Assembly: GCA_000004985.1 (NCBI GenBank)
Contig: GG738895.1
Reading direction: 5' to 3' (one strand)
DNA from: Naegleria gruberi
Taxonomy: Eukaryota
Length of the DNA: 64,000 nt
In this document: in pieces, positions 1,399-56,067 of the stretch
Position numbering within the stretch: the first letter of the stretch is position 1
Layout: each line of letters starts with the position of its first letter
Notes under the pieces: model-generated
The model's input: the letters and a program-made list of their open reading frames with translations, nothing else
Told to the model about the DNA's origin: nothing
The model's database searches: none
Position numbers and translations under genes: made by a program

Positions 1399-1475
1399 TG
1401 CACTTGTTGAATAATAATAAACAAATAATTTGAAATTTAATTTAGATTGAAACATTAATTGAATGAAGTAAAAAA

Positions 1476-4400
1476 ATGTTGAAACTAAGACAACAACTCA
1501 TCAACACTGTCTTAAATTCACATTCTCCGACAGTGGGATTCAATACCTTGTTGTTTAATCATCAAACAACATCATTGGTAGGATCCACTACAACCTCATA
1601 TCGTGCTATTCATAATAATCGTGGTGGTAATAATAACTTTAGAAACAATGATAATGACAATAACAATAGAGGAGAATTTAAACCAAGATTCAACAAGCAA
1701 TATCGATCATCCGATGATGCTACTTCATCTTCAACAACTAACTTTAACAAGAATAGTGAAAATAGACGAGCACCATCTTCATCAAATAATTATTCATCTA
1801 ACAACAGGGCTTCGGATGGTACCAATGGATTCAAACAAAACCGTTTTGAAAAATCCAACAATAACTACCAAAGATCATCATACGACAATAATACTAGATA
1901 CGAAAACAAGTTTAAAAAGTACGATACTAATAATAACAATAGATTTAAACAACAAGGTGAAAGTCGCTTTGAAAAGTCTGATAATAAGTTTAAAAAGTAT
2001 GATGATAATAATGGTGATAACAACAGATTTAAACAACAAGGTGAAAATAGGGTTGAAAAGTCTGGCACTAACTACCAAAGACCTTCATACAATGGTGATA
2101 ACAACACAAGATATGAAAATAAGTTTAAAAAGTATGATGATAATGGTGATAACAACAGATTTAAACAACAAGGTGAAAATACAAGGTTTGAAAAGTATCA
2201 AAGATCATCCAATGAAGATAGAAATAACAACAATAGCTTTAGAAAGTATGACAGAGAAGAAAGGAGAGAAAGAGAGGAATTTAAGCCAAAATTCAAATCC
2301 ACAGTAGTTCCTTTTGATCAATACAAGAAACAAAACAAGACACAATCAAGTGACAAATTTTCAAGTGAATCATCACGTACTAGATCCAAGTCTCCTTATG
2401 GAACACAATCAAGGAATCAACCAAAATATGAAAGAAAGGAAAGATCCAATCCAATCTATGAATATGATGAAGAGATTGATACCCTTTTTGAAGATAATTT
2501 AACACAAAAATCTAGTAAGGGAAGAGAAAACACTCGATTCAAATCATCTATTGAGAATCATGTTGATTCATATATTAGTGGAAAAGAACAAAAACAACCA
2601 AGAAAACAAACCAAGATGGCCTATATTCCTGCAAATGAAAATGTTAGAAATATGATGAAAAAGGAAATGGACAATGATGATTTTGAAGATGATTTCCAAG
2701 ACCTTACAAGTGTTAAAAAGATTGATATGAAGAACGTCGATAAGGATACCAAGAAGAAACCAAGACAAAGAGAAATTAAAGATCCAATGAGTGATGATTT
2801 GAAATGGATTGATGAAGATGAATACATGGCCATTCGTCAAAAGGGAATGAAAAAGATCATGAACAGTAGAAATGATTCACTTTCTAAAGCCTCTTCTCAC
2901 ATCTTATCCCAATCTAGAAATAATGTCACAAAACCACTAAATGTTCCAAGCAATGTCACCTTTGTTATGGATGATTCCAGAAGTTTAACAAGAAACCAAC
3001 CAACAGAAGAAGAAATTGAGGATGATGATGAAGATGTAGTTTTCTATGGAGATGAAGACTTTGAAGAAGATGAAGATTTTGATTTTGAAGAGGATATGGA
3101 AGAAGAGGAAGAAGAAAAACCAAAAAAGAAGGGTTCAAAAAAAGTGAAAAAGGAGCAGGAAGAAGCTCCAAAAATTGATATTCTTCCAGATGCCATGGTT
3201 GGCAAGTATTTGAAACAAATACAAAAAGAAAAGATGTCAAAGAATAGAGAATTTAAGTCTTTGCCTGTTGTGAATGGAGTTGTAAAGGAAATTTTCTCTT
3301 GTGGGTTAGCATCGAAAAGAAGTTTGAAACAAGCTGAGTATCTTCAATACTTTACCAGTGATGAAGTTTCTAAAACTGATGAGGAAGCTCAATCTAGAAA
3401 TGCAATGGCTAACATGTTGGGCGGAAATAGGGTGATTGAAGCACAATTGAAGCGTCAACAAGTTGCCAGAAAGACAAACAAAACTAGTCTTGTCTACAAT
3501 CAACCAGAACTCAGAGCTGACTTGCAAGTGAAAGATGATGTTGTCAATTGGGTATTTAAAAATTACAAGATGAAATATATTGGTTCGATTGGACTTTCTA
3601 AGAAGGATGAAGAATTGCTTGCTAAGGAACTAGAACAAGAAATGCAAGAAGAAAATGAAGAAGAAAATGAAAAAGAAATTCAAGAAAAACAAGAAGAAAA
3701 CCAAGAAGAAAATGAGAATCAACGTCTAGATATTGACAAATTATCAAAGGAAGAGCTGGATGAAATTTTGGAGAAGGAAGAAAATCTCTATGACTTCTAC
3801 CGAAGAAATTTTGAGGATCAAGAAGAAGAGGAAGAAACCCAAGTAGAAAAGAAAGAAAAGAATGAAAAAGAAGAGCCTGAAACCTTGGTTAGAAAGCTCT
3901 ATGATATTTCTAGAATGCTTGAGAAATGCAAAGGAATTCCACAAGTGGCATTTGCAGGAAGATCAAATGTTGGTAAATCATCAATTATCAATGCAATTAC
4001 TGGTAGAAATAACCTCAAAGCATCTGAAAAACCTGGTCAAACAAAGGATTTGAATTTCCACAGATTTGGAAAACACTTTTGTCTGGTAGACATGCCTGGT
4101 TATGGTTTTGCCTTCACCAAGGACAGTTCTGTTACTCAAAAATGGTTGGATCTCATCAGAAATTATTTTGTACAAAGTAGTACTGATCTTAAGGTTGTCT
4201 TTTTATTGATTGATTCGCGTCTAGGACTTAAGAGAAAAGATATGGACATGATTTCATTCTTGGAAGAGAATAATGTTCCATACCAAATTGTTTTCACAAA
4301 ATGTGATTTGATGTATGTTGACGATTTGGCAAGAATGGCATTCAAAACATTCAAGATTGATCCACTCACAAAAGGCATGACATTCAAAAATCATATCAAG

Positions 4401-4556
4401 GATGAGGAAACAGGCGACTTTAGAATGGTTTTCGTGAGTTCCAGATCCAAGACAGGAGTTGCAAGATTAAAGGAGGATATCGTGCTAAGACATGCTAAAT
4501 TCGATGTTGAATCATGGAAAAAGAATGTTAAGAAGAATGTTGTACTATTTGTGTAG
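1476..4556 (+). CDS. EngB/YihA-family ribosome-biogenesis GTPase (GTPBP8-like) with a mitochondrial-presequence-like N-terminus and an ~850-aa low-complexity N-terminal extension
   Basis: The C-terminal domain carries G1 GRSNVGKSS, G3 DMPGYG and G4 TKCD, and aligns along its length with bacterial YihA (AFAGRSNAGKSS...DLPGYGYA...TKADK). The N-terminus (MLKLRQQLINTVLN...) looks like a mitochondrial presequence. It is a single exon. Confidence 0.8.
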   Translation: MLKLRQQLINTVLNSHSPTVGFNTLLFNHQTTSLVGSTTTSYRAIHNNRGGNNNFRNNDNDNNNRGEFKPRFNKQYRSSDDATSSSTTNFNKNSENRRAPSSSNNYSSNNRASDGTNGFKQNRFEKSNNNYQRSSYDNNTRYENKFKKYDTNNNNRFKQQGESRFEKSDNKFKKYDDNNGDNNRFKQQGENRVEKSGTNYQRPSYNGDNNTRYENKFKKYDDNGDNNRFKQQGENTRFEKYQRSSNEDRNNNNSFRKYDREERREREEFKPKFKSTVVPFDQYKKQNKTQSSDKFSSESSRTRSKSPYGTQSRNQPKYERKERSNPIYEYDEEIDTLFEDNLTQKSSKGRENTRFKSSIENHVDSYISGKEQKQPRKQTKMAYIPANENVRNMMKKEMDNDDFEDDFQDLTSVKKIDMKNVDKDTKKKPRQREIKDPMSDDLKWIDEDEYMAIRQKGMKKIMNSRNDSLSKASSHILSQSRNNVTKPLNVPSNVTFVMDDSRSLTRNQPTEEEIEDDDEDVVFYGDEDFEEDEDFDFEEDMEEEEEEKPKKKGSKKVKKEQEEAPKIDILPDAMVGKYLKQIQKEKMSKNREFKSLPVVNGVVKEIFSCGLASKRSLKQAEYLQYFTSDEVSKTDEEAQSRNAMANMLGGNRVIEAQLKRQQVARKTNKTSLVYNQPELRADLQVKDDVVNWVFKNYKMKYIGSIGLSKKDEELLAKELEQEMQEENEEENEKEIQEKQEENQEENENQRLDIDKLSKEELDEILEKEENLYDFYRRNFEDQEEEEETQVEKKEKNEKEEPETLVRKLYDISRMLEKCKGIPQVAFAGRSNVGKSSIINAITGRNNLKASEKPGQTKDLNFHRFGKHFCLVDMPGYGFAFTKDSSVTQKWLDLIRNYFVQSSTDLKVVFLLIDSRLGLKRKDMDMISFLEENNVPYQIVFTKCDLMYVDDLARMAFKTFKIDPLTKGMTFKNHIKDEETGDFRMVFVSSRSKTGVARLKEDIVLRHAKFDVESWKKNVKKNVVLFV
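1860..2230 (+). repeat. Tandem in-frame coding repeats of ~40 aa (~120 nt) in the GTPase N-terminal extension
   Basis: The unit YENKFKKYD(D/T)N(N)GDNNRFKQQGE(N/S)R(F/V)EKS occurs at least 3 times; the nucleotide copies differ only slightly. Confidence 0.6.
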
Positions 4557-4580
4557 ATAAACAACGTATATTCTATATAT

Positions 4581-5417
4581 TTGATTCCAATAAAATTGAA
4601 AAAAATGGAAACAAGTGTAATTTATTGTGAAAGTCATGATGAAAATGTTATAGTTTCTCTCATTGATTTCCGAATAATATTGGAAGATCAAACAGTTGAA
4701 GAGAATTTGATCAACATGTGTAAGAAGCAAATGCAATCTCCACGACCAAAATATAATATGAAACAAATAGAAAAGTATGAAGATTTAGAGTTGGCAAGTT
4801 TGGAATTATTGAGAGGAATTTATGAGTATGGATTTACAAAATTACCAGACCTTCACAAAAAATGTATCATGCCAATTATTTCATCAGAACCTCCAATTGA
4901 TGTTGTAGTTAATGCTTACTGTGGTACTTCTAAAACTGCTGCCTATGCTATTTCTATTTTAAATAGAATCTATCCAATAGATGATTCTACTTATTCGAAA
5001 GGATGTCCACAAGCACTCATTTTAGTTTCAACCAGAGAGTTGGCAAAAAGTGTGTCTTATTTAATTAAGAGTATAGGTCGAGGTTTGAATGTAAGTGCCT
5101 TTCCATTAATTGGAGGCACAAAGACTACAGAAATGATTGAAAATTTAAATGAAATTCATCATGTCATTGTTGGAACACCTGGTACAACATGGAATGCAAT
5201 TGTGAGGGGCTATCTGAATGTTAAATATTTAAAAATACTAATTATCGATGAATTTGAATATATTTTGGATGGAGGATTCAAGGATTGTGTTGAGGAAATA
5301 TTGAACTCGGTTAGAAAAATTAATCTTCAAATATGTTTATTTTCTCAAGATTTTAAGGAAGAACGGGTAATGAATTTCATTGAAAAAGAATTGAGAAATC
5401 CTGTAAAAATAGTCTAA
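4581..5417 (+). CDS. Degenerate eIF4A-like DEAD-box helicase N-terminal (RecA-1) domain only; motif II is DEFE rather than DEAD, motif III is FSQ rather than SAT, and there is no helicase C domain
   Basis: Motif I-like AYCGTSKTAAY, Ia-like STRELA, GG, Ib-like VIVGTPGT, II DEFE and III LFSQ are present. The track start at 4581 is a TTG; the first ATG is at 4605. It lies in the same frame as the upstream GTPase, separated by one TAG (see findings). Confidence 0.6.
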   Translation: MIPIKLKKMETSVIYCESHDENVIVSLIDFRIILEDQTVEENLINMCKKQMQSPRPKYNMKQIEKYEDLELASLELLRGIYEYGFTKLPDLHKKCIMPIISSEPPIDVVVNAYCGTSKTAAYAISILNRIYPIDDSTYSKGCPQALILVSTRELAKSVSYLIKSIGRGLNVSAFPLIGGTKTTEMIENLNEIHHVIVGTPGTTWNAIVRGYLNVKYLKILIIDEFEYILDGGFKDCVEEILNSVRKINLQICLFSQDFKEERVMNFIEKELRNPVKIV

Positions 5418-5730: not shown

Positions 5731-7461
5731 ATGGTTCTCTTAACCATTTCACTTCTTCTCATCATTCTTGCACCACTCTCTTGGTTCATCTATGATAAGC
5801 TCTACAAACCATACTTGGACTGTCAAGTGCCAATCGAACAAATTGACAGCGTACTAAATGGAAACCAGAAGAAAATTGGAGAAACTGCCATCATTATTGG
5901 TGGATCATTCTCTGGTCTCACAACAGCCATGGTACTAAGTAAATACTATGAAAAAGTCCTCATCATTGATCGTTCCAAAATTATTCCAGACGAATCTATT
6001 GCCAAAAATAGACAAGGTGAACAAGCTCACGTAATTGCCTATCGTTCAATGCTTGTCTGGGAGAAATTATTACCTGGATTCCTAGATGAATTGAAAGAGT
6101 ATCTGAAAAGAAACAAATTAAATCAAATAGTTTATCCTGCAAGTCAAATTAAATATAATTATAAGAATGGTTTGGGAGTTTCGGATCATTTGGATATGAG
6201 AAAGAATCCAATGATTATGGCATCTAGAGGTCAGATTGAAACTATTTTGAGAGATAAAGTTAAGAGAGAATTGAAAAATGTAGAGTTTATTGATGGTTAT
6301 GCAGTTTCGTCTAGTGGAATTAAAGTTGAAACTGTTTCGGATAATTTAAATGGAAAGGTGACTCGTGTTAAATCTGTTACCATTACAAAGGTAGATTCTA
6401 ATGAACAAGATCAAGCCGGCAATTCCAAAACAATTGAATGTAATTTATTGGTCAATTGTGCAGGAGCTAATTCAAGTAATTTGATGAAAAATTTAGAAAA
6501 TGAAATTTCACCAAAAAAGAAAATTCTCACCAAATCATTTATTGATTGCAAGATTGGATATCAAACTATTTTCATGGAACCAAAAGATTCATCCTATGAT
6601 AGTGAAGGTAAAGTTGCCATTTATAGAGAAGAAAAAGAAAGTGAACAGGAAAATAGAAAATTGAATGATCCTTACTATATTGTCTATTATTTATTGTGTT
6701 ATCCAAGTAGAAAGGGTATTCTATTCATGCCATACAGTGATAATACCTTCCTCATCTTGTTAACAACTTACAATGAAAAGATTAACTCAGTTGAGTATGA
6801 AAATGCTAAAGAACAAATTATGGAATTCTGTTCAAGTAATCCAAAGATGGAAAGAGATGCTAAGAATATGCTTGAAAAATTCAAAGATATTCCAACAAAA
6901 ATTGTTCCATTCTTTGAAAAGAGTGGAAGTGAATATATTCACTATGAAGATTTGAAGGGAGTGAGAGATTTCATTGCAGTTGGAGATTCGTGTGGAAGTT
7001 TAAATCCTATTTATGGACAGGGAGTTACAATGGCTGTTGATTCTGCTGTGCTTTTAGATGAAATGATTAAGAATGAATTGAGTAAGAATGATTCATCCCC
7101 ACAACAAGTTTTCAAAGCATCATTCTGCCAGGAATTCCAATCAAGAATTTGTAAATCCTATCTCGTTCCATGGTTGTTGTGTTCAAGTACTGATATGAGG
7201 TTTGATTTTGCCAAGTACACTGATAATCTTTCAATGCAAAAGTTGATTGCTCCAATTTTGGGATGGGCCACAGATAAGATGTTCATGTCTGCCAATGTGT
7301 CATCAGTTTCTAGTTTCCACTTGATGAAACTCTTATTGATGGAAGATGGATTTAGAAAAGAACTTCTCAATTTGCGTTGGCTCTTTGGTTATGTTTTGAG
7401 AAAGGAAGCTATGATTGCAACTTTCTTATCACTTTCTGTCTATATTGCAACATTGTTTTAG
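5731..7461 (+). CDS. FAD-dependent monooxygenase/oxidoreductase with an N-terminal transmembrane segment
   Basis: It has an N-terminal hydrophobic helix, a Rossmann dinucleotide motif IIIGGSFSGLTTA...LIIDRS and a C-terminal VGDSCGSLNPIYGQGVTMA motif of the GD...P.xGQG flavoprotein-monooxygenase type. Confidence 0.65.
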   Translation: MVLLTISLLLIILAPLSWFIYDKLYKPYLDCQVPIEQIDSVLNGNQKKIGETAIIIGGSFSGLTTAMVLSKYYEKVLIIDRSKIIPDESIAKNRQGEQAHVIAYRSMLVWEKLLPGFLDELKEYLKRNKLNQIVYPASQIKYNYKNGLGVSDHLDMRKNPMIMASRGQIETILRDKVKRELKNVEFIDGYAVSSSGIKVETVSDNLNGKVTRVKSVTITKVDSNEQDQAGNSKTIECNLLVNCAGANSSNLMKNLENEISPKKKILTKSFIDCKIGYQTIFMEPKDSSYDSEGKVAIYREEKESEQENRKLNDPYYIVYYLLCYPSRKGILFMPYSDNTFLILLTTYNEKINSVEYENAKEQIMEFCSSNPKMERDAKNMLEKFKDIPTKIVPFFEKSGSEYIHYEDLKGVRDFIAVGDSCGSLNPIYGQGVTMAVDSAVLLDEMIKNELSKNDSSPQQVFKASFCQEFQSRICKSYLVPWLLCSSTDMRFDFAKYTDNLSMQKLIAPILGWATDKMFMSANVSSVSSFHLMKLLLMEDGFRKELLNLRWLFGYVLRKEAMIATFLSLSVYIATLF

Positions 7462-7524: not shown

Positions 7525-10500
7525 TTATTTCAAAAATTGTAACTCTGATTCATAAGCCTTTGGTTTGAATCGTTTTGGTAGTTCATTGGTTTTGGTATCC
7601 AATAACTTGGCATTTCCATCAAGTAACATGTTATCAAAGTGGAAAACGTTATCTTCCTTTGTCTTCTTGTTTACAATATCTGTGAATCGGTTAAATTCAA
7701 TCAATGGTTTGGCAATAACAGTTTCCAATCTTGGGGCTTCACCTAGAGCATCAATAATTTCAGAGGCAGAAATACCATTTGAGAAATCTTCAGATAAATG
7801 GCTCAAAACAAATCCAACTTGGTGTTTGGTCATTTCAGGACATACCAAAGTTCTCATTTCTTCTTGCAACAAGCCTTTTTGAACAATACATACGTCAGCA
7901 ACTTGTCTGCACATGACGAAAGCTTCTTCAGAGCTAGAGGTAGATTGTCTCAAACTGTGAATAATACCTTTAGAGTTGAACCAGTTCTCAATGAATGGCA
8001 ATCTCATCTTGATTTGAATAGCAGCATTTGTGTTCATCTTGTTTTGCAAGAAGTGGTTAAAGCATACAGCGTCAAGACCAGCAGCCAAATATTCAAAGAA
8101 ATGGTTGGAAATTCTCAAATCCACGTTATTGTTATCAAATTTGGATTTAAGTTCTGATAAACTTGCAAGAACAAATTTGATATCAGCTCCAGATTCTATT
8201 TCATATTGCTTTTCAGCAAAGAGAGCTCTAATCAACTTTTCTCTAACTCTACGAATGTGTTTCATAAGTAAATATGTGTAAGCCTTTCCTAATGTATTAG
8301 CCATTGATGTGAACAAGCTCTCCCAATTGGTAATAATTTCTTCGTTTTCTTCTCCTTCTTCAAGAGGTCTACTGAAAAGTTGTGGCATGTGTGGAGGATC
8401 GAATAGTGTTTCTTCTCCAGAAGCAGTGGTCTCTCTTGGACTTCTTAATGGACTTCTATTTCTTTGCTTCTCAAAAATAACAGCAGCATCACCAGTAGAA
8501 GTAGGTTTAAGTTGTTTGAGTGCCTTTTCAACAAGAGAGGCATTCTCCTTATCGAGTCCATGGAACATGGCAAGTAATCTACAAATTGCATTAATCCAAT
8601 AAATTAATTGATCATCATTGTGGGCATTCTTGTCTACAACATAATCAAGTGCATGAGAAACATTGGTAGCGAAAAGCTTATTTACACTCTTATTCTTTTC
8701 ATCGTTAATCTTCCACTTGTTAAGACATAGGAACAAAATTTTAACAGGAGTTGGAATTCTGCTATTCAAAACTTCAAAGGTTTGCACGTGTAAAATAGCT
8801 GACTCGACAACAAATCTTTGAACATCTAAAAGTTTGGATTGTTGAATGTAGGTGTCCATCTTTTCTTTAAGAACCTTTGCTTCTTCTTCCATCTTGGCCA
8901 TAGCTTCCTTGAGTACTGTTTCATTTTCACTCTTTTCATTAACTCCATTTTGCAAGTTATTAATTTCTTGGTTGCGCTTTTCAATAATCGAATCCAATTC
9001 ATTCATTGTAGTAACTTTTTGTTCCAGTTCTTGAGATTTTTCTGATAACTCTTGCTCCTTGGATTGAATGTTGTTAACAAGATTTTGTAAATCTTTTTCT
9101 CTAGTTTCAAGTTCTGTCTTTAGAGTTTGAATTTGCTCCTCTTGTTCAGTGACAGCTTGTGATTTTTGTACAAGTTCTTCATCAAGTTTGCTGAGTTTTT
9201 GTTCAAGTAATTCTGCTTCGGCTTGCTTTTCTTGAATCTTGTTATGAGCGTCTTGGAGTTGATTATTGAGATCAGATATTTCCTTTCCTTGTTGTTCAGT
9301 ACTTTCCAAAAGAGTACCTCTTTCTTGTTCGAGATCTCTCTTTTCTTTTTCAAGCTTTTCTAACTTTTCATCCATTTCATATTTCAATCTATTGAGAGCA
9401 TCTTCACTATTGACTTGAAGTCCCAAAAGTTCTCTGAGTTCATCTTGCTTGTTCTTCAACTCTTCGTCCTTTGATGAAATGATTCTGTCTTTTTCAGAAA
9501 TAGTTTTTTCGAAATCAGCAAGTTTTTCATGCAAACTCTCAAATTGCTTATTGAGGAATGATTGTTTGGCTTCTTCAGCGCTAGATGATTCTTCATTATT
9601 ATTGACTAAAGTACCGATCTTTGAGATGATATCTGCAATATTCTTGTTGTACTGTTCTTCTTTTTCTTCAATAACTTTGTTAAGACCTTGGGCCTTTTCG
9701 TCTTGCTCCTTTACTTGTTGTTGCAATTTTTCAACCACTAAATTGCTAGCATCCAACTCAGTGGTTACTCTTTCTTGCTTTTCTTTCAGGGTTTCAATTC
9801 TATTTTCCAGAGAAAGAACAATCTCCTTTGATTTAAATAGATCATTGATAGCTTCATCACGTTCTTGGATGGTTGTGGCCAATTGATTAGATTGTTCTGC
9901 GGAGGCATTCTTGAGTTTAGAAATTTCCTCTTCCAGTTGTTCAATACTTGCTTCTCTTTCGCTCAAAGATGCTTCAGCTCTATACTTGTCTTGGGTTACT
10001 TCGTTGAGTTGAGCTTTAGTAGTGTTGAGGTCATTATTGAGAGAATCAATTTGTTCATTCAAAGACTTAATATCCTTTTCTAAGGAGTCCGATTCTTCTT
10101 TTGCGGATACAAGTTTAGTCTCCAGAGATTCTTTTTCTTGAGTAAGACTTGAAATAATCTCTTCCTTGTGAGAGACTGACTTTGACAACAACATATTTTG
10201 GTGTTGATTGTCAGTAACATCATCTTCAAGTTTGGAGATTGATTCTCTGAGTTGAGCAATAATGATACCGAGATCCTTCTTCTCAACTTCAGCATTTTGA
10301 AGAATTTCAATCTTTTCTGATTCTAATTTTTCAAGTTTTTCAAGAGTTGAATCTTTTTCTTTGGTGATATCTTCAGCCAATTTTTTACTGGTGGCCAGTT
10401 GTTCACCAATTTCCTCCTTTGCTCTTCTTGTTTGTTTCAACTGTTCAGCAATTTCATCTTTCTCTTGATTGGCAATTTTGAGTGATTCTTGTGCCTTGTT

Positions 10501-13500
10501 CAATTCTTGGAGGAGCTTGTTGCCCATTTCTTCCTTTTCATTGATACTGGCCTCAAGAAGAGATTGTTTTTCTTTTTCTAAACTTTCAATCTTTGATTCA
10601 AGATCGATGATTTGACCCTTGTATTGTTCTCCATCTTCATTGGCATTCTTTAACTCTTGTTGAAGACTCTTGATGGTTTCTTCAAGTTGAGATTTTTGAC
10701 TTTCCAATTGGGTAACCTTGTTGCCCATAACTTCCTTTTCATTAAAGCTAGTTTCAAGAAGAGATTGTTTTTCCTTTTCCAAATTTTCAATCTTTGATTG
10801 AAGTTCAGTGATTTGACCCTTGTATTGTTCTCCATCTTCTTTGGCATTCTTGAGTTCTTGTTGGAGACTCTTGATAGTTTCTTCAAGTTGAGATTTTTGG
10901 GTATGAAGATCTGAATTGTCTTTCTCTATTCTAGAGATATTTTCATCCTTTAGGGAAATAATGTGCAACATTTCATCCTTTTGAGAGAGGGTAGAGTCAA
11001 GAAGTGATTGTTTTTCTTTTTCTAAGACTGCAATCTTCTTGTTAAGATCTGAAATTTGGCCTTTGTATTCCTCTCCATCTTCCTTGACTTTGTTAAGCTC
11101 GTCTTGAAGATTTTCAATCAATGTTTCAAGTTGAGCCTTTTGCTCATCTACTTGTTCTTTGTCTTTTTGGACCCTTTCGACCACTTGTTGTATGGTTTCA
11201 ACTTTTTGGTTTAATTCTTGAACCTTATTTTCAGCCAATAAGTGTTTCTTTTGGAGTTCTTCCAATTCTGAGGAGCTTGTTCTTAATTTCTTGGTAAATT
11301 CAAGAATTTCTAAGTCAGCTTTTTCTTTCTCTTGTTCCAATGATTCAAGCTCTTGTTCGAGCTCGTTACGTTCAGTCTTAATACCCTCTAGTTCCTTACC
11401 AAGTGATTCATACTTTTCGGAGAGTTCTGAATGTCTTGTTTGCAAAGATTCGAACCTGGACACTTGTGATGCAATTTCTTCAACTTTTTCCTTAATTTGA
11501 TTCAACAGGTCTTCCTTTTCTTCTGAATGAGCAGTTTCAAGATTCTTCTTTTCGGTCTCCAAGCTTTCTAATTGAATAATGACACCAGATAGTTTTTCGA
11601 CAGTGACATCCTTTTCTTCTCTCTCGGTAGCCAATGCAGACTTTGTAACTGATATTTCAGCCTTTAAACGCTCAATCTCTTTTTCTAATTCATCCTTAGC
11701 TGAAGCTTGTATTTCTATTTCTCTCTTCAAGCTTTTGATTTCCTCCTCATTTTGTTGGAGAAGTTTCAAAAGCTCTTCTTGTTTGCTCTTGAGTTCAATT
11801 TCCTTGTCATGTATGGCTGAGTCCTTTTCAGTAAGGAATGATTGGATAGCGATCAGTTGTTCTTTGAGATTGATGATTTCATTAGTGAGGCCATCCTTTT
11901 GATTAATTAAAAGTTCAATAACACTATCAGCAGAGTCACTATCTGTGCCAACAATCTTTGAAAGCTTACTGACCAAAGAGGTAATTTCATTCTTGTACTT
12001 AGCTTCTTGTTCAGAAAGGTTGGTGTTGAGTGTATCGATATTCTCCTCCTTGTTTTGAAGTTCAGACTTGAGGGCTTCAATTTGCTTCTTGCTTGCCTCA
12101 ACATCTCCATTCAATTCTGCAACTGATGACTCGAGCTTGGCAATAGAAGATTCCATTTCCACTATCTTGTCTTGCTTTTCTCTAATGCTTTGGACTTGCT
12201 CTTCAACTTGAGATTCTAATCCTTGTATGAGTTCTTGTTTGGCATTGATGTCAGATAAATGTTTTTCAATGGCGTCTTGCTTTTCTCTGAGAGTATTCAG
12301 GTAAGAATCATTGCTTTGATCAGTTTCGGATCTGAGCAAAGTAATTTGCTCCAACAATCCTTCCTTTTCCCTTTGGAGGGAACCAATATCTTCCTTTGAT
12401 TTTTCTAAATTGGAAATAACTTCGGTAAGCTCCACCTTGATGGAAGCCAATGATTCATCTAGTGTTTTCTTTTCCTCAACCAACTTATCAATAGAATCTT
12501 GTTTTTCATTGACAGATTTAGACAAAATAAGGGATTGATGTTGATTTTCAGTAACATCATCTTCAAGTTTGGAGATTGATTCTCTGAGTTGAGCAATAAT
12601 GATACCGAGATCCTTCTTCTCAACTTCAGCATTTTGAAGAATTTCAATCTTTTCTGATTCTAATTTTTCAAGTTTTTCAAGGGTTTCAGTCTTCTCCTTG
12701 AGTAAACCTTCATTTTCAGTGGAAATTTGGGAAATTTCTTGTTCAAGATCCTCCTTTGCTCTTCTTGTTTGTTTCAACTGTTCAGCAATTTCATCTTTCT
12801 CTTGATTGGCAATTTTGAGTGATTCTTGTGCCTTGTTCAATTCTTGCAAAAGTCTGTTACCAGCTTCTTCCTTTTCATTGATACTGGCCTCAAGAAGAGA
12901 TTGTTTTTCTTTTTCTAAACTTTCAATCTTTGATTCAAGATCGATGATTTGACCCTTGTATTGTTCTCCATCTTCATTGGCATTCTTTAACTCTTGTTGA
13001 AGACTCTTGATAGTTTCTTCAAGTTGAGATTTGTGACTTTCCAATTGCTCCTTGTCTTGTTCAATTCTATTGATACTATCATCCTTTGAGTTGATGATGC
13101 TATTCAATTCTTGAATCTTATTTTCAGCCAATAAGTGTTTCTTTTGGAGTTCTTCCAATTCTGAGGAGCTTGTTCTTAATTTCTTGGTAAATTCAAGAAT
13201 TTCCAAGTCAGCTTTTTCTTTTTCTTGCTCCAAGGATTCAAGCTCTTGTTCGAGCTCGCTACGAGCATTCTTGATATTCTCCAATTCCGTTTCAAGAGCA
13301 CTATTTGAAGTTCTAAGCTCATTAATCTCAGTATCTTTGTTTTGCATTTGTTCTAGCATGTTATTGAGCTTGTCTACAGTTGTATCTTTCTCTTCTCTTA
13401 TGGTTCCAAGTTGCTCTCTGAGTTCTGAAATTTCTTGTTTCAACTTTTCAATTTGGTCATCCAGGGTAGTATGGTGGTCGAGGGCTTGGGCGAGTTTTTC

Positions 13501-16500
13501 TTGATTGATCTTGAGATCCTTTTCTATTTCGTTCATTCTTTCCTCACGTTGAGCGATACTATTAGATAAAGATTCCTTTTCTTGTGAGGAAGATTCTCTT
13601 AGTAACTTTAAGGACTCTTCTAATTCTTCAATCTTAGTCTCTAGTAAAACTATCGTTTCTTGTTTCTTGGTATTTTCTTGTTCAACGATAATAATCTTCT
13701 CTCCAAGAGTTTGCTTGTCGGATTTTGTTTGAGAAAGCTCTTCGGAAAGAGTATTGTTTTCTTCCTTTACGTGTTTCAATTTCTCTTTGGTTTCTTCCAA
13801 CTCTTTCAACAAGGAACCTTCCTTAAGATCAGAGCTAGAAAGAAGACTGTTCTTCTCTTGAGTAAGGGTTTCAACTTGTTTGTTTAGTGAAATAATTTCC
13901 ACTTCATTCTCCTTAATTTTCTCTGAAAGCTTGGACTTCTCAGAGATATGTTTTTCTAGTTCTCTAGTCTTTTCTTCAATAAGGTTTGTCAGGTCTGTCA
14001 ACTTCTTGTCTGCATCACTTGAGAGAGATTCGAGTTCTGAAATTCTACCTGCTGAGGTTTGCAATTGTGAAGTAGACTCAGCGAGTTGATCTTCTAGCTG
14101 CTTCTTTGCTTCCTCCAATTGTTGCAGTTTGTCAGCAAGTTGATTCTTTTCGGAAAGTAATTCACTAATTTGACTAGAAAGAGTATCAGAGCCTTGACCC
14201 AATCTTTCCAATTCATCCTTAGTTCTTTCTAAACTTTGGCTTGTTTCTTCCAACTTTTGTTTGTATTCTAATACTTGTTTATCCAATTGTTCATGAGCAC
14301 TAATTTCTTTAGAAAGTTCTTGTTCCTTTTGTTGAATAGTTGCAGAAAGTTCTTTTCTCTCCTTTGTCAATAAATCTTCAATGTCGTTCTTTTCTTTTTG
14401 AATCTTTTCAATTCTTTGCAGCAATCCTGAAACCTCTGATGATGTATTTTCTTTATCACTTGTAATAAGTTTTAATTGCTCTTCTAAATTGGAAATATTG
14501 GACAAGGCTCTTTCGAGATCAACCTTGAAAGTATCTCTTTCTTGGACAGTACCTTCGAGTTCTTGTTCCTTGTCCTGTAGCGATTTGGAAACTTGTGCAG
14601 ATTTTTCTTGTTCACTCTTCAGAGATTCTTCAAGGGTAGTAACTCTGGATTTGATTTCTACCAATTCCGTTGCTAGGTTTTTCTTTTCATCGTTAAGTTC
14701 AGAGACCTTTTGTTGTGATTCGGTGAGATTTTGTTTTAGTTCCTCGATAGTGGAATTGAGAGAAGTTATTGTTTTCTCGAGGTCATCTGATTTTTGCTTG
14801 AAATCCTCAATTTGAGATTCAAGCTCTTCATTTTGTTTTCTAACAGATTCGACTTCCTGACTGACTTTGGAAAGTTTCTCATCTAATGACCCATTTTGCA
14901 CCTTCAATGATTCATATTCTTGCAACAAGTTATTCAGCTTTTCCTTATGTTCTGACAATTCTTTGAAGAATGTTTCTTTCTCCTTTTCGGTTTGAGAAAG
15001 AACTTCCTTAGTTCTATTCATTTCATTTTGAAGGTTAATATACAGCGAATCCTTTGTTTCAGAATCATTAAGATTTTGATCTTGCAAATCTTTAAGTTGC
15101 TTCTTAATCGATTCAATCTCATTAAGAGATTTTTCTTTTTCATCACGAGTTTGTTCCAATGTCTTATTAATATTTACAAGTTCTTGTTGTGTATCTTGTA
15201 ATTGCTTTTCTAAAGATAGCTTCTCGGTGGAATGCTGTTCAATAGTTGTATTGTTCTGATTAACAAGATCTTCATATTTTTGGGAAAGGGTGTTATACTC
15301 CTTTTCTTGATTGTCTTTGTTTTCATTTAGACTGGAAATAGTAGCTTCTAACGATGAAATTTGTTGAGTTAAAGAAGAAACCTTATCTTGCAAATCAACT
15401 TTTGCTTTAGTTTCGGCTTCAATCTCGCTCTCTCTGGTCTTTAACTCCTTTCTAAGATTGGATTCCTTTTCAGAAACGTCAGAAAGGTTTGATTCAAGAC
15501 TTGAAATCTTTTCAGACATTTGCTTAACCTCATTGTTGAGTCTTTCCTTCTCTCTATTTGCCTCATCAAGTTGTTGCTCTTTTTGCTTAATATTGTTCAT
15601 CAGTTCTTGTGATAAACTTTCTTGACTTGCCAAGGAAGTAGTAATAAGTTGATTCTTTTCATTCTCGAGTTGAGTAACTTTTTCATTCAGTAACTTGATT
15701 TCACTTTCAAGTTCAACCTTATCCTTTTTGACTTGATCTAATTCTGAATCAATTCTACTGTTAAACTCAACTAACTCCAAATTGGTTTGCTTGATTGCAT
15801 TTAACTTTAGAAGAAGAAGATCTGTCATTTTATGCAACTCTTCTTGAATTTGATCCGGATGAATCTTTTCAAACTCGTTACTCTTGCTATGGTTAATAAA
15901 TTCGTCACTTAATTTGGTGGCTTCTTTAATCTTCTTCTTGAAGTCATTGTCTTCAGTCACTTGAGTCATAGCTTCTTCCAGTTTCTTCTTCAGCTTGTTG
16001 AATTCTTGAATACATGACAACAAAATTTCATGTTCCTTGTTGGTCTTTTGGAGATTATGATTAGTCTTCTCAAGTTGAGTAGTAATTTCTGATTTTTCCT
16101 TCAAAATCTTTTGAATAGATTCGTGATTCTCGTTATCTTCTTTTTCTTTCAACTTCTTCAAGCTTTCAAGTTCAGATCTGATAATCTCAATATCTTTTTC
16201 TTTTGAAGATGCTTCACTTTCATAATGCTTCTTCAAGAATTATAGTGTTTCCATATTTTTTAAAACTTACCTTAAGTCTTGTGAGCTCTGAATTTAACTC
16301 TTCATTTGTATGCTTGAGTTGTTTAACATTTTCTTCGAGATTATGAGATTTATCCTCTGATGCCTTCAACTTTAGAGAAACTGATGAAACCTCCTCTTGT
16401 ATTTCCTCAATACGACCTTCATACTCACGACTAGATTTTTCCTTCTCTGCATTATTTTCCTGAATAATGTCATCCTTTCTGGAAGATTCCTGTTTCAAGT

Positions 16501-53600: not shown

Positions 53601-54047
53601 GGTATTTGAATTCTAGCTGGTGATGCCGGTGACCTAATTTTAATATTATTATTATAAATATATTTTAATATTAAATATATTATATCATCAGATAAATGTT
53701 GAAAATTATAATTATGACAGGAAGAAACAATGTACTGTACATACCCTCCTCATCCCATGTTGTTGTTTGATTGTATTTTTTTTTTAAATGGCTTGTTTGA
53801 AGAGTGAAATGTGATGCATTGTAAATGGAATAATATTAAATATTGACATTATTGTAAAATATGTTGTATTTATTAAATATATTGATAAATACTAATTGTT
53901 ATTTTCACTTTGTGATGATTCTGATAATGAACTTTTCTTGTTCTTTGTAACACAATGTTTGAAATGGAAATCAATTTCATAATTGACCAAAATGTAATTT
54001 GAAATTTAATCAAATTCTATTTCTGAAAAACAATTATTTAAAAAAAA

Positions 54048-54815
54048 ATGGGAGTTTTAGGTAAAAGAGTTTATAGAAAATACAAACAAAAATACATTAA
54101 CAAGTATTTTAAATATTCCTATCAATGTGATTTTCCAAATAGAAAACAAATATTTCAAATACAATCACCTTATCTAACATTTAATGAACAATATTCACCA
54201 TCATCTAAATATCCACAACTATTGACACCTGTCACTAAAACAAGTATTTCAAATTTAAAGTTAACATGTATGAAGAAACCACTCATTCAAATACCTACAT
54301 TTAAAAGAATTATCAATAGATCAATGGAATTATCAGCTCCAGATATAATGCCATTAAAAGAAGAATATAATTATAATATTGTAAAGTTGAATATTAGCAC
54401 AATAGATGATCAACAGTGTGCACAAACAGAATTTAATGGATTTCGTTTAACGAGAGATAAATTAACATCACTAACTTGTAGAAAATGGCATTCAATAATA
54501 ACATTTAATAATACATTTAAAAGTATGGATGGATATCATGTTAGAATTTTCATGACATCATGTACAAGAATGAAATTATTACAAATTAAAAAGACATCAT
54601 ATGCTAACAAGTCACAAATTAAAAAGATTAGAACTATAATGTATCAAGTAATATTAAAATATTTAAGTAAAATGACAATATTAGAATTTGTTAATAGAAT
54701 GGCAATTAAATGTGAAATGAGCAGTGAAATTAGAATGAAATGTGAAAATATTTATCCATTAGAGGATGAAATTTTAATTACAAAGATTAAATTATTAGAA
54801 AAACCTCAACTTTAA
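54048..54815 (+). CDS. Highly divergent ribosomal protein eS1 (RPS3A)-like ORF of 255 aa, either a diverged paralogue or a decaying copy
   Basis: The C-terminal two-thirds aligns with eS1: FNGFRLTRDKLTSLTCRKW...DGYHVRIF...LQIKKTSYANKSQIKKIR...CENIYPLEDEILITKIKLLEKPQ versus human FHGMDLTRDKMCSMVKKW...DGYLLRLF...NQIRKTSYAQHQQVRQIR...[22 protein letters not shown]. The N-terminal third is not recognisable, and the region is extremely AT-rich. Confidence 0.6.
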   Translation: MGVLGKRVYRKYKQKYINKYFKYSYQCDFPNRKQIFQIQSPYLTFNEQYSPSSKYPQLLTPVTKTSISNLKLTCMKKPLIQIPTFKRIINRSMELSAPDIMPLKEEYNYNIVKLNISTIDDQQCAQTEFNGFRLTRDKLTSLTCRKWHSIITFNNTFKSMDGYHVRIFMTSCTRMKLLQIKKTSYANKSQIKKIRTIMYQVILKYLSKMTILEFVNRMAIKCEMSSEIRMKCENIYPLEDEILITKIKLLEKPQL

Positions 54816-54915
54816 CAATTTTTCTATTAATATTTATGTAAATATTAAATAAATAGATAAAAATGTAAAAATTAAAAAATCAATTAAATTAAAAAATTAA
54901 ATAAAAAAATAAAAT

Positions 54916-56067
54916 TTAATTTTCATTTTCTTTTTTATCCTTATTTCCTCCTAAACCAATATATGCAATTGCAACAATACCAACAGTTAATGCAAATAAA
55001 ATTGCAACAAATTTTTTAAATTTTTTAGAATTTTTAGTTTTTTCTTCTCTTCCAACAATGATATCAAGTTGCCAATTATGAAATTCTCTTGTTCTATCAA
55101 TAATTTCTTGATCTTTTGAACCTAAACGATGATACCATTCTTCTAAAGATAATCTATATTGTAACCAATGTAATAAATAATTATTTTCAAAATATTTTGT
55201 AATAACTTCATATTGAGCTCTTGCTATAATTGGTTTTGTTAATTCATTTCTTTGATATAAATCATTTGGTCCACTTTGTCCAATTGCTTTTAATTCTTGA
55301 TAATAAATTGAATTATTTAATTCATCATCATTTATTGTTAAAAATGTATTTTTATAAATTTCTTTAATATTTTCATCTGATAATTTTTCAATATTATTTA
55401 ATTGTAATGAAGGAGATGATTCTATTGTTGATTTTATATTATTAAATTCATTCAATCCAAAATTAATTAAAATTCTTTTAATAAAATTAAAAATATTTAA
55501 ATCTTGATATTTATATAATTCATTTTTAAATAAAACTACTTTTAAAGTAATTTGATTAGAAATTTCACCTTCATCTTGAAGTTTTTCATCAATTGAATAA
55601 ATTTGTGGATATTTTTGTTTTAATACTTTATAATAACTTTGATTTACTATTTGAGTAATTGAATTCCATTTTAAAAATAAATTTTCTTCAGGTTGATTTG
55701 GAAGATTTAAAACTTGATTAAATAATTTATGAGAATATACTTGTTCTTCTACTTGATTTAATATTTCTTGTAATTCATCTCTTGAAAATTTATTTTCATC
55801 ATTATTTAAATTATTATTTAAATTATTTTCATCATTATTTAAATTATTATTATTCAAATTATTATTAGAATGATATAATGATTGATGATAATTAAATGAT
55901 GATAATGTTATTAATTTGAATAATTGATGTTGATTATTCATACTACATGATGTTATTGTTGTTGGAAGAAGAAAATTATTCATTCCGATAGAATTATTCA
56001 TCTTTATAATAGAAGATGAACAATTTCTACTATTACTCTTTGATAATTGTATTACTGCTCTTCTCAT
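54916..56067 (-). CDS. Hypothetical protein with a presequence-like N-terminus, Asn/Leu-rich repeats (LNNNNLNNDEN x2) and a C-terminal transmembrane anchor
   Basis: It is a 383-aa ORF with a C-terminal hydrophobic segment FVAILFALTVGIVAIAYIGL and no recognised domain; the sequence is very AT-rich. Confidence 0.5.
   Translation of the reverse strand: MRRAVIQLSKSNSRNCSSSIIKMNNSIGMNNFLLPTTITSCSMNNQHQLFKLITLSSFNYHQSLYHSNNNLNNNNLNNDENNLNNNLNNDENKFSRDELQEILNQVEEQVYSHKLFNQVLNLPNQPEENLFLKWNSITQIVNQSYYKVLKQKYPQIYSIDEKLQDEGEISNQITLKVVLFKNELYKYQDLNIFNFIKRILINFGLNEFNNIKSTIESSPSLQLNNIEKLSDENIKEIYKNTFLTINDDELNNSIYYQELKAIGQSGPNDLYQRNELTKPIIARAQYEVITKYFENNYLLHWLQYRLSLEEWYHRLGSKDQEIIDRTREFHNWQLDIIVGREEKTKNSKKFKKFVAILFALTVGIVAIAYIGLGGNKDKKENEN

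What the first reader, a model, noticed from the sequence alone, without database searches (positions are those of the whole stretch)
4581..5417. Stand-alone, catalytically degenerate DEAD-box RecA-1 domain (pseudo-helicase)
The ORF carries the ordered eIF4A-like motifs Q/I/Ia/Ib/II/III, but with DEFE in place of DEAD and FSQ in place of SAT. It ends exactly at the inter-domain linker, so there is no helicase C domain, and the next 300 nt are non-coding. A truncated, ATPase-compromised DEAD-box module could act as an RNA-binding or regulatory pseudoenzyme, especially if fused to the upstream GTPase.
Basis: partly seen in the sequence, partly recalled or inferred. Interest (0 to 1): 0.55.

Follow-up and report, generated by a model that had tools for sequence, protein, structure and literature searches.

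The report
Half-helicase copy of eIF4A in Naegleria
This is a real Naegleria gruberi gene for a protein that is only the first half of the translation helicase eIF4A, with most ATP-using motifs damaged; it belongs to a small, fast-evolving family that probably acts by binding rather than catalysis, and its role is untested.

Summary
Window 4605..5417 (+) encodes a 270-aa protein, N. gruberi XP_002672773 / NAEGRDRAFT_72190, annotated from M38. It is a complete, confidently folded eIF4A-type RecA1 domain. It stops two residues after the last strand of domain 1. No helicase-C domain lies in the 64-kb window.

Motif Ia and the GG pair survive.

It is not a lone oddity. N. gruberi has three such domain-1-only paralogues on one scaffold (43-50% identical), and Willaertia magna has three more. 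All carry the 'S-E-P-P' insertion also found in canonical W. magna eIF4A, so they derive from the lineage's own eIF4A.

The ORFs stayed open across saturated synonymous divergence (pN 0.36 against pS 0.61), so long-term decay is rejected. A 98%-identical strain gives omega about 0.9 (7 non-synonymous, 2 synonymous), against about 0.09 for the neighbouring GTPase. Constraint is therefore weak or recently relaxed.

Fusion to the GTPase is not supported. Function is inferred only: a non-catalytic eIF4A-NTD mimic. I rate it a new variant of a known kind, of moderate interest.

The parts
4605..5417 (+). Coding sequence of the stand-alone eIF4A-like RecA1 protein (270 aa plus TAA stop). It is N. gruberi NAEGRDRAFT_72190 / XP_002672773 / D2VT65, whose public model starts at M38 (nt 4716).
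   Evidence: The 270-aa reading is the form called in a second strain (P0268). Its N-terminal tail is homologous to that of paralogue P0269 and to the canonical eIF4A tail.
4605..4757 (+). N-terminal tail, residues 1-51. Residues 1-26 are disordered, followed by a predicted helix at 29-43.
   Evidence: AlphaFold pLDDT is below 50 for residues 1-26, with a helix at 29-43. '...LINMCKKQMQSPRPKYNMKQIE' aligns with '...LIKLFKKQITIPRSKFNMKKIE' of P0269.
4758..5414 (+). RecA1 (DEAD, domain 1) core, residues 52-270.
   Evidence: Pfam PF00270 E=9.6e-23. Block-mean pLDDT is above 90 over residues 51-270 except for one block at 121-130. Foldseek target-normalised TM-score is 0.89-0.95 to eIF4A N-terminal domain structures 5ZBZ, 2G9N, 7DDX and 3BOR.
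4854..4856 (+). Q-motif position: His84 in place of the invariant adenine-reading Gln.
   Evidence: Gln is present in 100% of the 55 full-length sequences compared.
4881..4895 (+). 'S-S-E-P-P' segment, which carries a three-residue insertion relative to human and yeast eIF4A. It is shared with canonical heterolobosean eIF4A.
   Evidence: One search shows the gap against human eIF4A-I. W. magna full-length eIF4A P0294 has 'TTSEPPAD'.
4914..4937 (+). Motif I (Walker A): AYCGTSKT in place of AQSGTGKT. The Gly before the Lys is replaced by Ser109.
5028..5045 (+). Motif Ia: STRELA in place of PTRELA. T-R-E is kept in all three N. gruberi paralogues and one W. magna copy; Glu145 is kept in all five truncated proteins compared.
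5112..5117 (+). The GG doublet, retained.
5175..5186 (+). Motif Ib: TPGT in place of TPGR (Arg lost).
5247..5258 (+). Motif II (Walker B): DEFE in place of DEAD.
   Evidence: Read directly from the sequence; alignments.
5343..5351 (+). Motif III: SQD in place of SAT.
4557..4604 (.). 48-nt spacer between the TAG stop of the upstream EngB-like GTPase gene (1476..4556) and the ATG.
   Evidence: It carries two substitutions and a 2-nt indel against strain contig L001.
5418..5730 (.). Non-coding stretch between this gene and the next one, a FAD-binding oxidoreductase-like gene at 5731..7461.
   Evidence: Stops in all six frames. A 1-nt and a 16-nt indel plus about 8 substitutions in the first 110 nt against L001. 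No Rfam family reaches its threshold.

Best explanation
The ORF is a genuine protein-coding gene of Naegleria gruberi. It arose by duplication of the lineage's own eIF4A and kept only the N-terminal tail and the first RecA domain.

Shown:
- It folds as a complete eIF4A domain 1.
- It has no second RecA domain.
- It has lesions in the Q motif, Walker A, motif II and motif III.
- It is one of three such paralogues in N. gruberi, with similar domain-1-only proteins in Willaertia magna.
- Their reading frames have been kept open over a divergence at which neutral DNA could not stay open.

From established DEAD-box knowledge: ATP hydrolysis and tight RNA binding need the cleft between RecA1 and RecA2 (motifs V and VI). 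This protein therefore cannot be an ATPase or helicase on its own.

Inferred: it works by binding. It most likely acts as a non-catalytic mimic of the eIF4A N-terminal domain, which occupies or titrates partners of that domain. Candidates are MIF4G/MA3-type HEAT domains of eIF4G-like or PDCD4-like proteins, with at most weak RNA contact through Ia/GG. In that way it would modulate translation initiation.

Constraint on the sequence is weak, and the family evolves fast.
For: Identity and fold: Pfam DEAD only. eIF4A-I domain 1 is the best solved relative, and the alignment ends at the domain boundary. AlphaFold mean pLDDT is 87.1 and Foldseek target-normalised TM-score is 0.89-0.95 to eIF4A N-terminal domains.

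No RecA2: tblastn with full-length eIF4A proteins matches only residues about 20-237, in the window and in loci L001, L002 and L005.

Family: P0001, P0010 and P0156 are all N. gruberi, all lie on a 333,733-bp contig, and all have PF00270 only. W. magna has P0044, P0271 and P0318.

Origin: the SEPP insertion is shared with W. magna canonical eIF4A P0294.

Selection:
- Window gene against the paralogue in L002: pN 0.36 against pS 0.61, NG86 omega about 0.4.
- Codon-position identities are 0.58, 0.71 and 0.48 for positions 1, 2 and 3.
- Simulated neutral change leaves the ORF open in under 1% of runs at 0.1 substitutions per site and in none at 0.3 or more.
- There are no indels in 813 coding nt, against 3 indels in about 158 flanking nt between strains.

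Motif decay concentrates in the ATP motifs. Fold-core residues, Glu145 of motif Ia and the second Gly of GG are kept in all five truncated proteins.
Against: - Between two 98%-identical strains the gene has 7 non-synonymous and 2 synonymous changes (omega about 0.9). The adjacent GTPase gene has 2 and 5 (omega about 0.09). The counts are tiny (Fisher p=0.13) but fit relaxed constraint.
- One of those changes hits Gln136, a residue nearly invariant in eIF4A.
- The other strain's copy of paralogue 72146 has lost the GG doublet.
- No expression data, binding data or partner were available.
- The eIF4G and PDCD4 contact residues could not be mapped, because the structure paper is not held.
- No homologue was recovered from N. 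fowleri or other heteroloboseans.
- Most of eIF4G's affinity for eIF4A is for the C-terminal domain, which this protein lacks.
Confidence: 0.6

Rival explanations
1. It is a functionless relic. On this view the family is a set of truncated eIF4A duplicates that were once constrained but are now drifting toward pseudogenes. The ORF is open only because too little time has passed since constraint was lost.
For: Strain-pair omega is about 0.9, and dN is 11 times that of the neighbouring gene at equal dS. Changes hit canonical residues: Q136H in this gene and GG to GA in the paralogue. At the strain-level divergence of 0.012 substitutions per site, a neutral ORF stays open about half the time, so the open frame says nothing about the recent past. 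No expression evidence was found.
Against: Six independent copies in two genera all keep open frames of 214-270 codons ending at the same point. Paralogue pN is well below pS. A neutral ORF cannot survive beyond about 0.1 substitutions per site. There are no indels in the ORF while the flanks have them. Very close strains are known to give inflated dN/dS (established knowledge).
Confidence: 0.2
2. It is one half of a split helicase. The protein pairs in trans with a separately encoded RecA2 (helicase-C) protein, or with the C-terminal domain of eIF4A, to rebuild an ATP- or RNA-binding cleft.
For: Several family members keep an intact GTGKT P-loop and the Q-motif Gln (P0156, W. magna P0044). 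Motif Ia and GG are mostly kept.
Against: Motif II is damaged in every copy at one or more positions, and Ala217 is lost in all five. Motif III has lost A248 and T249 in all five. The window copy also lacks the Q-motif Gln and the P-loop Gly. No helicase-C ORF lies in the window or in the related loci. I could not search the N. gruberi proteome for stand-alone RecA2 proteins.
Confidence: 0.05
3. It is a C-terminal module of the upstream GTPase, joined by stop-codon readthrough or splicing.
For: In the window the two ORFs are in the same frame and are separated by a single TAG and 48 nt.
Against: In strain contig L001 a 2-nt deletion in the spacer puts the ORFs in different frames, and the stop is kept. 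The EngB-like GTPase domain is complete before its stop. The W. magna homologue follows a PARP_regulatory-domain gene instead. Equally short same-strand spacers occur between other gene pairs: 77 nt at 1399-1475, and 80 nt in L005.
Confidence: 0.02
4. It is an assembly or annotation artefact: the first exon of a normal full-length eIF4A-like gene whose 3' part was missed.
For: N. gruberi genes can have introns. Prokaryote-style gene callers on metagenome contigs cut eukaryotic genes at introns, so metagenome 'truncated' proteins such as P0035 or P0076 cannot be trusted.
Against: Two independent assemblies give the same stop and the same downstream sequence. The next gene starts 313 nt later. 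No helicase-C coding potential exists in 58 kb downstream or 4.6 kb upstream. All paralogues, and the W. magna genes from a eukaryotic annotation, end at the same residue.
Confidence: 0.02

Closest known systems
eIF4A-I (DDX2A), domain 1, including canonical heterolobosean eIF4A (W. magna ABK040_000708, P0294)
   Same: Same fold and motif order. It is 35-37% identical across the whole of domain 1. It shares the SEPP insertion with the W. magna protein. Its N-terminal tail is homologous.
   Different: There is no RecA2 domain (motifs IV-VI). Q motif, Walker A, DEAD and SAT are altered. It therefore cannot be the eIF4F helicase.
Utp25/Def, described as the first fully validated DEAD-box pseudohelicase (PMC9539457)
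   Same: A DEAD-box-derived protein whose catalytic motifs are degenerate or dispensable and which is thought to act structurally.
   Different: Utp25 keeps both RecA domains, is universally conserved and is essential. This protein has one domain, is lineage-restricted, evolves fast, and descends directly from eIF4A rather than from an ancient separate branch.
Domain-1-only or tandem-domain-1 eIF4A-like predicted proteins in other eukaryotes
   Same: Examples are Entamoeba marina KAL7719283 (228 aa), a Paramoeba atlantica MMETSP transcript (235 aa), Coemansia guatemalensis KAJ2809372 (230 aa), Stomoxys calcitrans LOC106083760 (six or more degenerate domain-1 repeats) and Calicophoron daubneyi CAL8078821. 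All are eIF4A-like RecA1 modules without a matching RecA2, many with degenerate motifs.
   Different: They are independent lineages. They lack the heterolobosean SEPP insertion and none is characterised. Their grouping with the Naegleria proteins in the NJ tree has 53% support or less and looks like long-branch attraction.
Processed or duplicated pseudogene of eIF4A
   Same: A truncated copy of a housekeeping gene, with loss of catalytic residues and a high recent dN/dS.
   Different: The frame is open in six copies. pN is below pS across paralogues. The truncation point is conserved. There are no frameshifts while the flanks carry indels.

Membership tests
DEAD-box RNA helicase (SF2, DDX) | RecA1 domain with the DEAD-family fold (Pfam PF00270) | tested here: met
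   PF00270 E=9.6e-23, 81 bits against a cut-off of 26. AlphaFold model with target-normalised TM-score 0.89-0.95 to eIF4A domain 1.
DEAD-box RNA helicase (SF2, DDX) | Second RecA domain (Helicase_C, PF00271) with motifs IV, V and VI | tested here: not met
   No PF00271 hit. The protein ends 2 residues after the last strand of domain 1. No helicase-C coding potential anywhere in the 64-kb window.
DEAD-box RNA helicase (SF2, DDX) | Motif II Asp-Glu-Ala-Asp | tested here: not met
   D-E-F-E at residues 215-218.
DEAD-box RNA helicase (SF2, DDX) | Walker A A-x-x-G-x-G-K-T, and the Q-motif Gln | tested here: not met
   AYCGTSKT (Gly109Ser) and His84 in place of Gln.
DEAD-box RNA helicase (SF2, DDX) | Motif III S-A-T | tested here: not met
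   S-Q-D at residues 247-249.
DEAD-box RNA helicase (SF2, DDX) | RNA-contact motifs of domain 1 (Ia PTRELA, GG, Ib TPGR) | tested here: inconclusive
   STRELA and GG are present; TPGT has lost the Arg. RNA binding itself was not measured.
DEAD-box RNA helicase (SF2, DDX) | RNA-stimulated ATPase and unwinding activity | not testable with these tools
   This needs biochemistry. It is predicted absent because RecA2 and key residues are missing (inference from established DEAD-box mechanism).
eIF4A subfamily (descent from eIF4A) | Closest relatives are eIF4A-I, and lineage-specific eIF4A markers are shared | tested here: met
   eIF4A-I scores 122 bits, against 91 for eIF4A-III, 87 for Dhh1 and 71-77 for Dbp5/DDX19. 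The SEPP insertion is shared with W. magna eIF4A P0294.
eIF4A subfamily (functional eIF4F subunit) | C-terminal domain that carries the main eIF4G-binding surface | tested here: not met
   The domain is absent. That the C-terminal domain is the primary eIF4G site is established knowledge; both domains contact eIF4G according to PMC3074137.
Pseudogene | Disrupted reading frame (stop codons or frameshifts) | tested here: not met
   The frame is open for 270 codons in two strains and in all paralogues.
Pseudogene | Neutral evolution (dN/dS about 1) | tested here: inconclusive
   Omega is about 0.9 between strains, from 9 substitutions. It is about 0.4 or lower between paralogues, with saturated dS.
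Pseudohelicase in the sense of Utp25 | Two-RecA helicase fold whose catalytic motifs are dispensable, with an essential structural role | tested here: not met
   Only one RecA domain is present. Essentiality was not tested.

The most novel reading that the evidence does not exclude
The Naegleria/Willaertia domain-1-only eIF4A copies may be a fast-evolving decoy family. On this reading they are stand-alone mimics of the eIF4A N-terminal domain that soak up factors targeting eIF4A. Those factors could be endogenous MA3/MIF4G-type repressors, or effectors of the viruses and bacteria that infect these amoebae. Their high dN/dS, repeated duplication and motif turnover would then reflect an arms race rather than decay. 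The scattered domain-1-only eIF4A copies in Entamoeba, Paramoeba, fungi and flies would be convergent examples of the same strategy.
Probability: 0.1. Interest if true: 0.7.

Novelty: new variant of a known kind. Interest (0 to 1): 0.42.

Why it matters
DEAD-box proteins are treated as obligate two-domain enzymes, and the one well-validated DEAD-box pseudohelicase, Utp25, keeps both domains. A family of single-domain, motif-degenerate eIF4A copies has been kept as open genes in two amoeboflagellate genera. That suggests the eIF4A N-terminal domain can have a selectable job of its own, most simply as a competitor or adaptor for proteins that dock on it.

If so, it would be a natural reagent for dissecting what binds eIF4A domain 1. 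It would also be a possible translational regulator in Naegleria, a genus that includes the human pathogen N. fowleri.

On a practical level, the public names ('ATP-dependent RNA helicase') and the start codon of the N. gruberi model are probably wrong.

Tried and rejected
- Fusion with the GTPase was rejected.
- A hidden helicase-C exon was rejected by tblastn with full-length eIF4A proteins against the window and loci L001-L005.
- No paralogue lies inside the window: none of P0010, P0156 or P0157 hits anywhere but 4743-5414.
- Exact-sequence look-ups of the N. gruberi reference proteins found no contigs. Strain variants P0268 and P0269 did.
- Two JGI-metagenome scans, one with the single protein and one with the family profile, found no relatives.
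- An NJ tree with 200 bootstraps gave 100% support for the N. gruberi trio and for the W. magna pair. Support for joining them was only 46%, and all long-branch truncated proteins were pulled together, so a single origin versus two origins is unresolved.
- Shared derived states hint at one origin but could be convergent under relaxed constraint. Examples are Pro80 to Leu/Met in 5 of 5 and Ala104 to Ser in 4 of 5.
- P0035, a less degenerate domain-1-only ORF, ends 10 nt from its contig end, so it is uninformative.
- The intergenic region has no Rfam match that reaches its family's threshold, and the window has no tRNA genes.
- Literature searches for the gene identifiers, Naegleria with eIF4A, DEAD-box pseudohelicases, and truncated or dominant-negative eIF4A paralogues found no description of this family.
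- I could not map eIF4G or PDCD4 contact residues, because the structure papers were not found or are not held.
Full report
**What the window is**

The window is Naegleria gruberi nuclear DNA. The ORF's product is 100% identical to 'predicted protein [Naegleria gruberi]', XP_002672773.1 / EFC40029.1 / NAEGRDRAFT_72190 / UniProt D2VT65, on a 333,733-bp scaffold. GC content is about 32%, and genes are tightly packed, mostly as single long ORFs.

**Checking the observation**

The ORF listing reports 4581..5417 (+), 278 codons from a TTG. The first ATG is at 4605, which gives 270 aa and a TAA stop at 5415-5417. Pfam finds DEAD (PF00270, E=9.6e-23) and no Helicase_C.

phmmer against PDB sequences puts human eIF4A-I domain 1 first (1.7e-34, 122 bits). 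It ranks ahead of eIF4A-III (91 bits), Dhh1/DDX6 (87) and Dbp5/DDX19 (71-77). The alignment runs from query 55 to 269 of 270, ending at '...RDPIRI', the last strand of domain 1.

An AlphaFold model built on a 60-sequence alignment has mean pLDDT 87.1. Block-mean pLDDT is above 90 over residues 51-270, apart from one block at 121-130. The model has the full alternating strand-helix order of a RecA domain. Foldseek against the PDB gives target-normalised TM-scores of 0.89-0.95 to isolated eIF4A N-terminal domains (5ZBZ, 2G9N, 7DDX, 3BOR, 1QVA).

Read from the alignments, the motifs are:
- Q motif: Gln to His84.
- Motif I: AYCGTSKT (Gly109Ser).
- Motif Ia: STRELA.
- GG: kept.
- Motif Ib: TPGT.
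- Motif II: DEFE.
- Motif III: SQD.

The rest of the description is right.

The 313 nt after the stop have stops in all six frames. Between two strains they carry a 1-nt and a 16-nt indel, and no Rfam family reaches its threshold there. tblastn with three full-length eIF4A-type proteins finds only domain 1 (query residues about 20-237), at 4743-5414, and nothing else in 64 kb.

**Start codon**

The public model begins at M38 (nt 4716). A metagenome-derived strain (contig L001, 98.1% identical in DNA) was called with the 270-aa form, P0268. The strain copy of a paralogue, P0269 (264 aa), has an N-terminal tail that aligns with window residues about 9-52. For example, 'LIKLFKKQITIPRSKFNMKKIE' aligns with 'LINMCKKQMQSPRPKYNMKQIE'. 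The tail also resembles that of canonical W. magna eIF4A, '...GKARYVQKEVKEFDDM'. Translation therefore most likely starts at 4605. This rests on sequence homology, with no transcript evidence.

**It is a family, not a one-off**

An exhaustive HMMER scan of 1.84 billion representatives and two word-indexed searches found two more N. gruberi proteins:
- P0010: NAEGRDRAFT_72139, 214 aa.
- P0156: NAEGRDRAFT_72146, 217 aa.

Both are PF00270-only, lie on a contig of the same length (333,733 bp), and end at the same point, '...[RK]DPI..'. Pairwise identities are 43-50%.

Willaertia magna, a related heterolobosean, has three more: P0044 and P0271 (235 aa) and P0318 (247 aa). A 12.7-kb W. magna locus (L005) shows a single-exon gene with no helicase-C nearby, and an unrelated PARP_regulatory-domain gene 80 nt upstream.

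Each copy is degenerate in its own way:

| Copy | Motif I | Motif II | Motif III |
|---|---|---|---|
| P0010 | SSSGTGKK | DRTG | G only (rest unaligned) |
| P0156 | SKIGTGKT | EEMS | GCA |
| W. magna P0044 | SLSGTGKT | DQLD | SLQ |

I compared 61 positions that are at least 90% conserved in 55 full-length relatives. The five truncated proteins keep 32-41 of them.
- Lost in 5 of 5: Pro80 (Q motif), Gln103 and Gln105 (motif I), Gln149, Ala217 (motif II), Met220, A248 and T249 (motif III), Pro251, Met263.
- Kept in 5 of 5: fold-core residues, Thr108 and Lys110 of the P-loop, Glu145 of motif Ia, Gly171 of the GG pair, Thr191 and Pro266.

**Origin**

Relative to human and yeast eIF4A, all these proteins have a three-residue insertion, '...IMPIISSEPPIDVV...'. 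The same insertion is present in canonical, fully intact W. magna eIF4A (P0294, 407 aa, '...ILPITTSEPPADVIGQAQSGTGKT...'). It also occurs in several intact environmental eIF4A proteins (P0157, P0292, P0293, P0295, P0296). The truncated genes therefore descend from the lineage's own eIF4A, not from Dbp5 or another DEAD-box branch.

An NJ tree gives 100% support to the N. gruberi trio and to the W. magna pair. Support for joining them is only 46%, and truncated proteins from unrelated taxa are drawn to the same place, a long-branch artefact. W. magna P0044 is 48% identical to W. magna eIF4A, whereas the window protein is 36-37% identical to it. One ancient truncation and two independent truncations both remain possible.

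**Selection**

*Deep comparison.* For the window gene against the paralogue in L002, pS is 0.61 and pN is 0.36, so NG86 omega is about 0.4. That is an upper bound, because dS is saturated. Identity by codon position is 0.58, 0.71 and 0.48. When I mutated the ORF neutrally with the window's base composition, it stayed open in 6% of runs at 0.05 substitutions per site, 0.7% at 0.1, 0.01% at 0.2, and none at 0.3 or more. Six copies open at this divergence exclude long-term neutrality.

*Recent comparison.* Against L001 the ORF has 9 substitutions, 7 non-synonymous and 2 synonymous, giving dN 0.011, dS 0.012 and omega about 0.9. The adjacent GTPase ORF has 2 and 5, giving dN 0.001, dS 0.011 and omega about 0.09. 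The difference is not significant (Fisher p=0.13). It does agree with the paralogue 72146, which differs at 3 of 217 residues between the same strains, including GG to GA. The ORF has no indels, while about 158 nt of flanking non-coding DNA have three.

My reading is that the gene has been maintained by selection for an intact product, but under weak or shifting constraint.

**The GTPase-fusion idea**

The upstream ORF (1476..4556, 1026 aa) ends with a complete MMR_HSR1/EngB-type GTPase domain. In the window it is in frame with the DEAD ORF across a single TAG. In L001 the stop is kept, and a 2-nt deletion in the spacer shifts the relative frame. The W. magna homologue has a different upstream neighbour. 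Short same-strand spacers are normal here: 77 nt at 1399-1475, and 80 nt in L005. Fusion is not supported.

**Mechanism**

The following comes from established DEAD-box knowledge, not from tests here. ATP is hydrolysed in the cleft between RecA1 and RecA2, using motif VI arginines and motif V. RNA is clamped by both domains. Isolated domain 1 of eIF4A is not an ATPase. This protein lacks RecA2, the adenine-reading Gln and the P-loop Gly, and has altered motifs II and III. It is therefore non-catalytic and, for this copy, probably a poor nucleotide binder.

What remains is an eIF4A-shaped surface. Domain 1 of eIF4A is a known docking site for HEAT-type domains. eIF4G contacts both eIF4A domains (PMC3074137). 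PDB entries with PDCD4, KANK1 and CWC22 appear among the structural matches.

The most economical model is a non-catalytic mimic that competes for or bridges such partners, with at most weak RNA contact through Ia/GG. This step is inference. I put about 0.3 on the specific mimic mechanism and about 0.85 on the description of what the gene is.

**Rivals**

I considered four rival readings: a relic now drifting (0.2), one half of a split helicase (0.05), a GTPase fusion (0.02) and an artefact (0.02).

**Comparison with what is known, and novelty**

The gene is in public databases, auto-named 'ATP-dependent RNA helicase', which is almost certainly wrong as a functional label. I found no paper on it or on a domain-1-only eIF4A family. 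The nearest concept is the DEAD-box pseudohelicase Utp25, described as the first fully validated pseudohelicase, but it keeps both RecA domains.

Similar uncharacterised domain-1-only or tandem-domain-1 eIF4A-like predictions exist in Entamoeba marina, Paramoeba atlantica (seen in a transcriptome), Coemansia, Leucocoprinus, Stomoxys calcitrans and Calicophoron daubneyi. The theme therefore recurs but is unstudied.

I class it as a new variant of a known kind, and score interest at 0.42. It is a clean and unusual architecture with evidence of retention. Against that, it has weak constraint, a narrow known distribution, and no functional data.

Noticed in passing
window 4605-4715: The public N. 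gruberi gene model (XP_002672773, 233 aa) starts at M38. Homology of the upstream 37 codons to the tail of a paralogue, and a 270-aa call in a second strain, suggest the true start is the ATG at 4605.
   Followed up: partly
window 1476-4556: The upstream gene encodes a 1026-aa protein. About 800 residues of Asn/Glu/Lys-rich, internally repetitive low-complexity sequence precede a complete EngB/MMR_HSR1-type GTPase domain. The alignment with strain contig L001 shows 72 gapped positions in the ORF and the ORF stays open in L001; some of these gaps may come from the repetitive 5' end of L001.
   Followed up: partly
window 1399-1475 and 4557-4604; L005 5921-6000: Same-strand neighbouring ORFs are separated by only 48-80 nt. 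That leaves almost no room for a 3' UTR plus promoter plus 5' UTR. How these genes are transcribed separately is not obvious.
   Followed up: no
window 7525-16236 (- strand): A single 2903-codon ORF encodes a huge Glu/Lys/Leu/Gln-rich protein of apparently coiled-coil type, with long internal repeats and a non-repetitive C-terminal region.
   Followed up: no
window 54001-56000 and 62001-64000: Two stretches fall to 20-22% GC, against about 32% elsewhere. The second also has a strong negative GC skew (-0.31).
   Followed up: no
P0012 (Stomoxys calcitrans LOC106083760) and P0009 (Calicophoron daubneyi CAL8078821): These are long predicted proteins made of four to six or more tandem eIF4A-like domain-1 repeats, many with degenerate motifs. 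The fly protein shows no obvious helicase-C; the fluke protein has one C-terminal helicase-C-like region. They could be real multi-domain-1 proteins or fused tandem-gene arrays.
   Followed up: no
P0095/P0407 (Paramoeba atlantica MMETSP transcript), P0138 (Entamoeba marina), P0144 (Coemansia guatemalensis), P0036 (Leucocoprinus leucothites): Domain-1-only eIF4A-like proteins of 228-249 aa with partly degenerate motifs occur in unrelated eukaryotes. One comes from a transcriptome, so at least that one is expressed.
   Followed up: partly
L002 158-952 (P0269) compared with P0156: In the second Naegleria strain, the orthologue of paralogue 72146 has GG changed to GA in the RNA-contact doublet. 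This is another sign of loose constraint on the helicase motifs in this family.
   Followed up: partly
L004 2175-2882 (P0035, ENA metagenome ERZ27315067): A 235-aa domain-1-only ORF has a heterolobosean-style N-terminus, intact DEAD and SAT, and a Walker A Lys-to-Arg change (TRFGSGRT). The contig ends 10 nt after the stop, so a following intron and exon cannot be excluded.
   Followed up: partly
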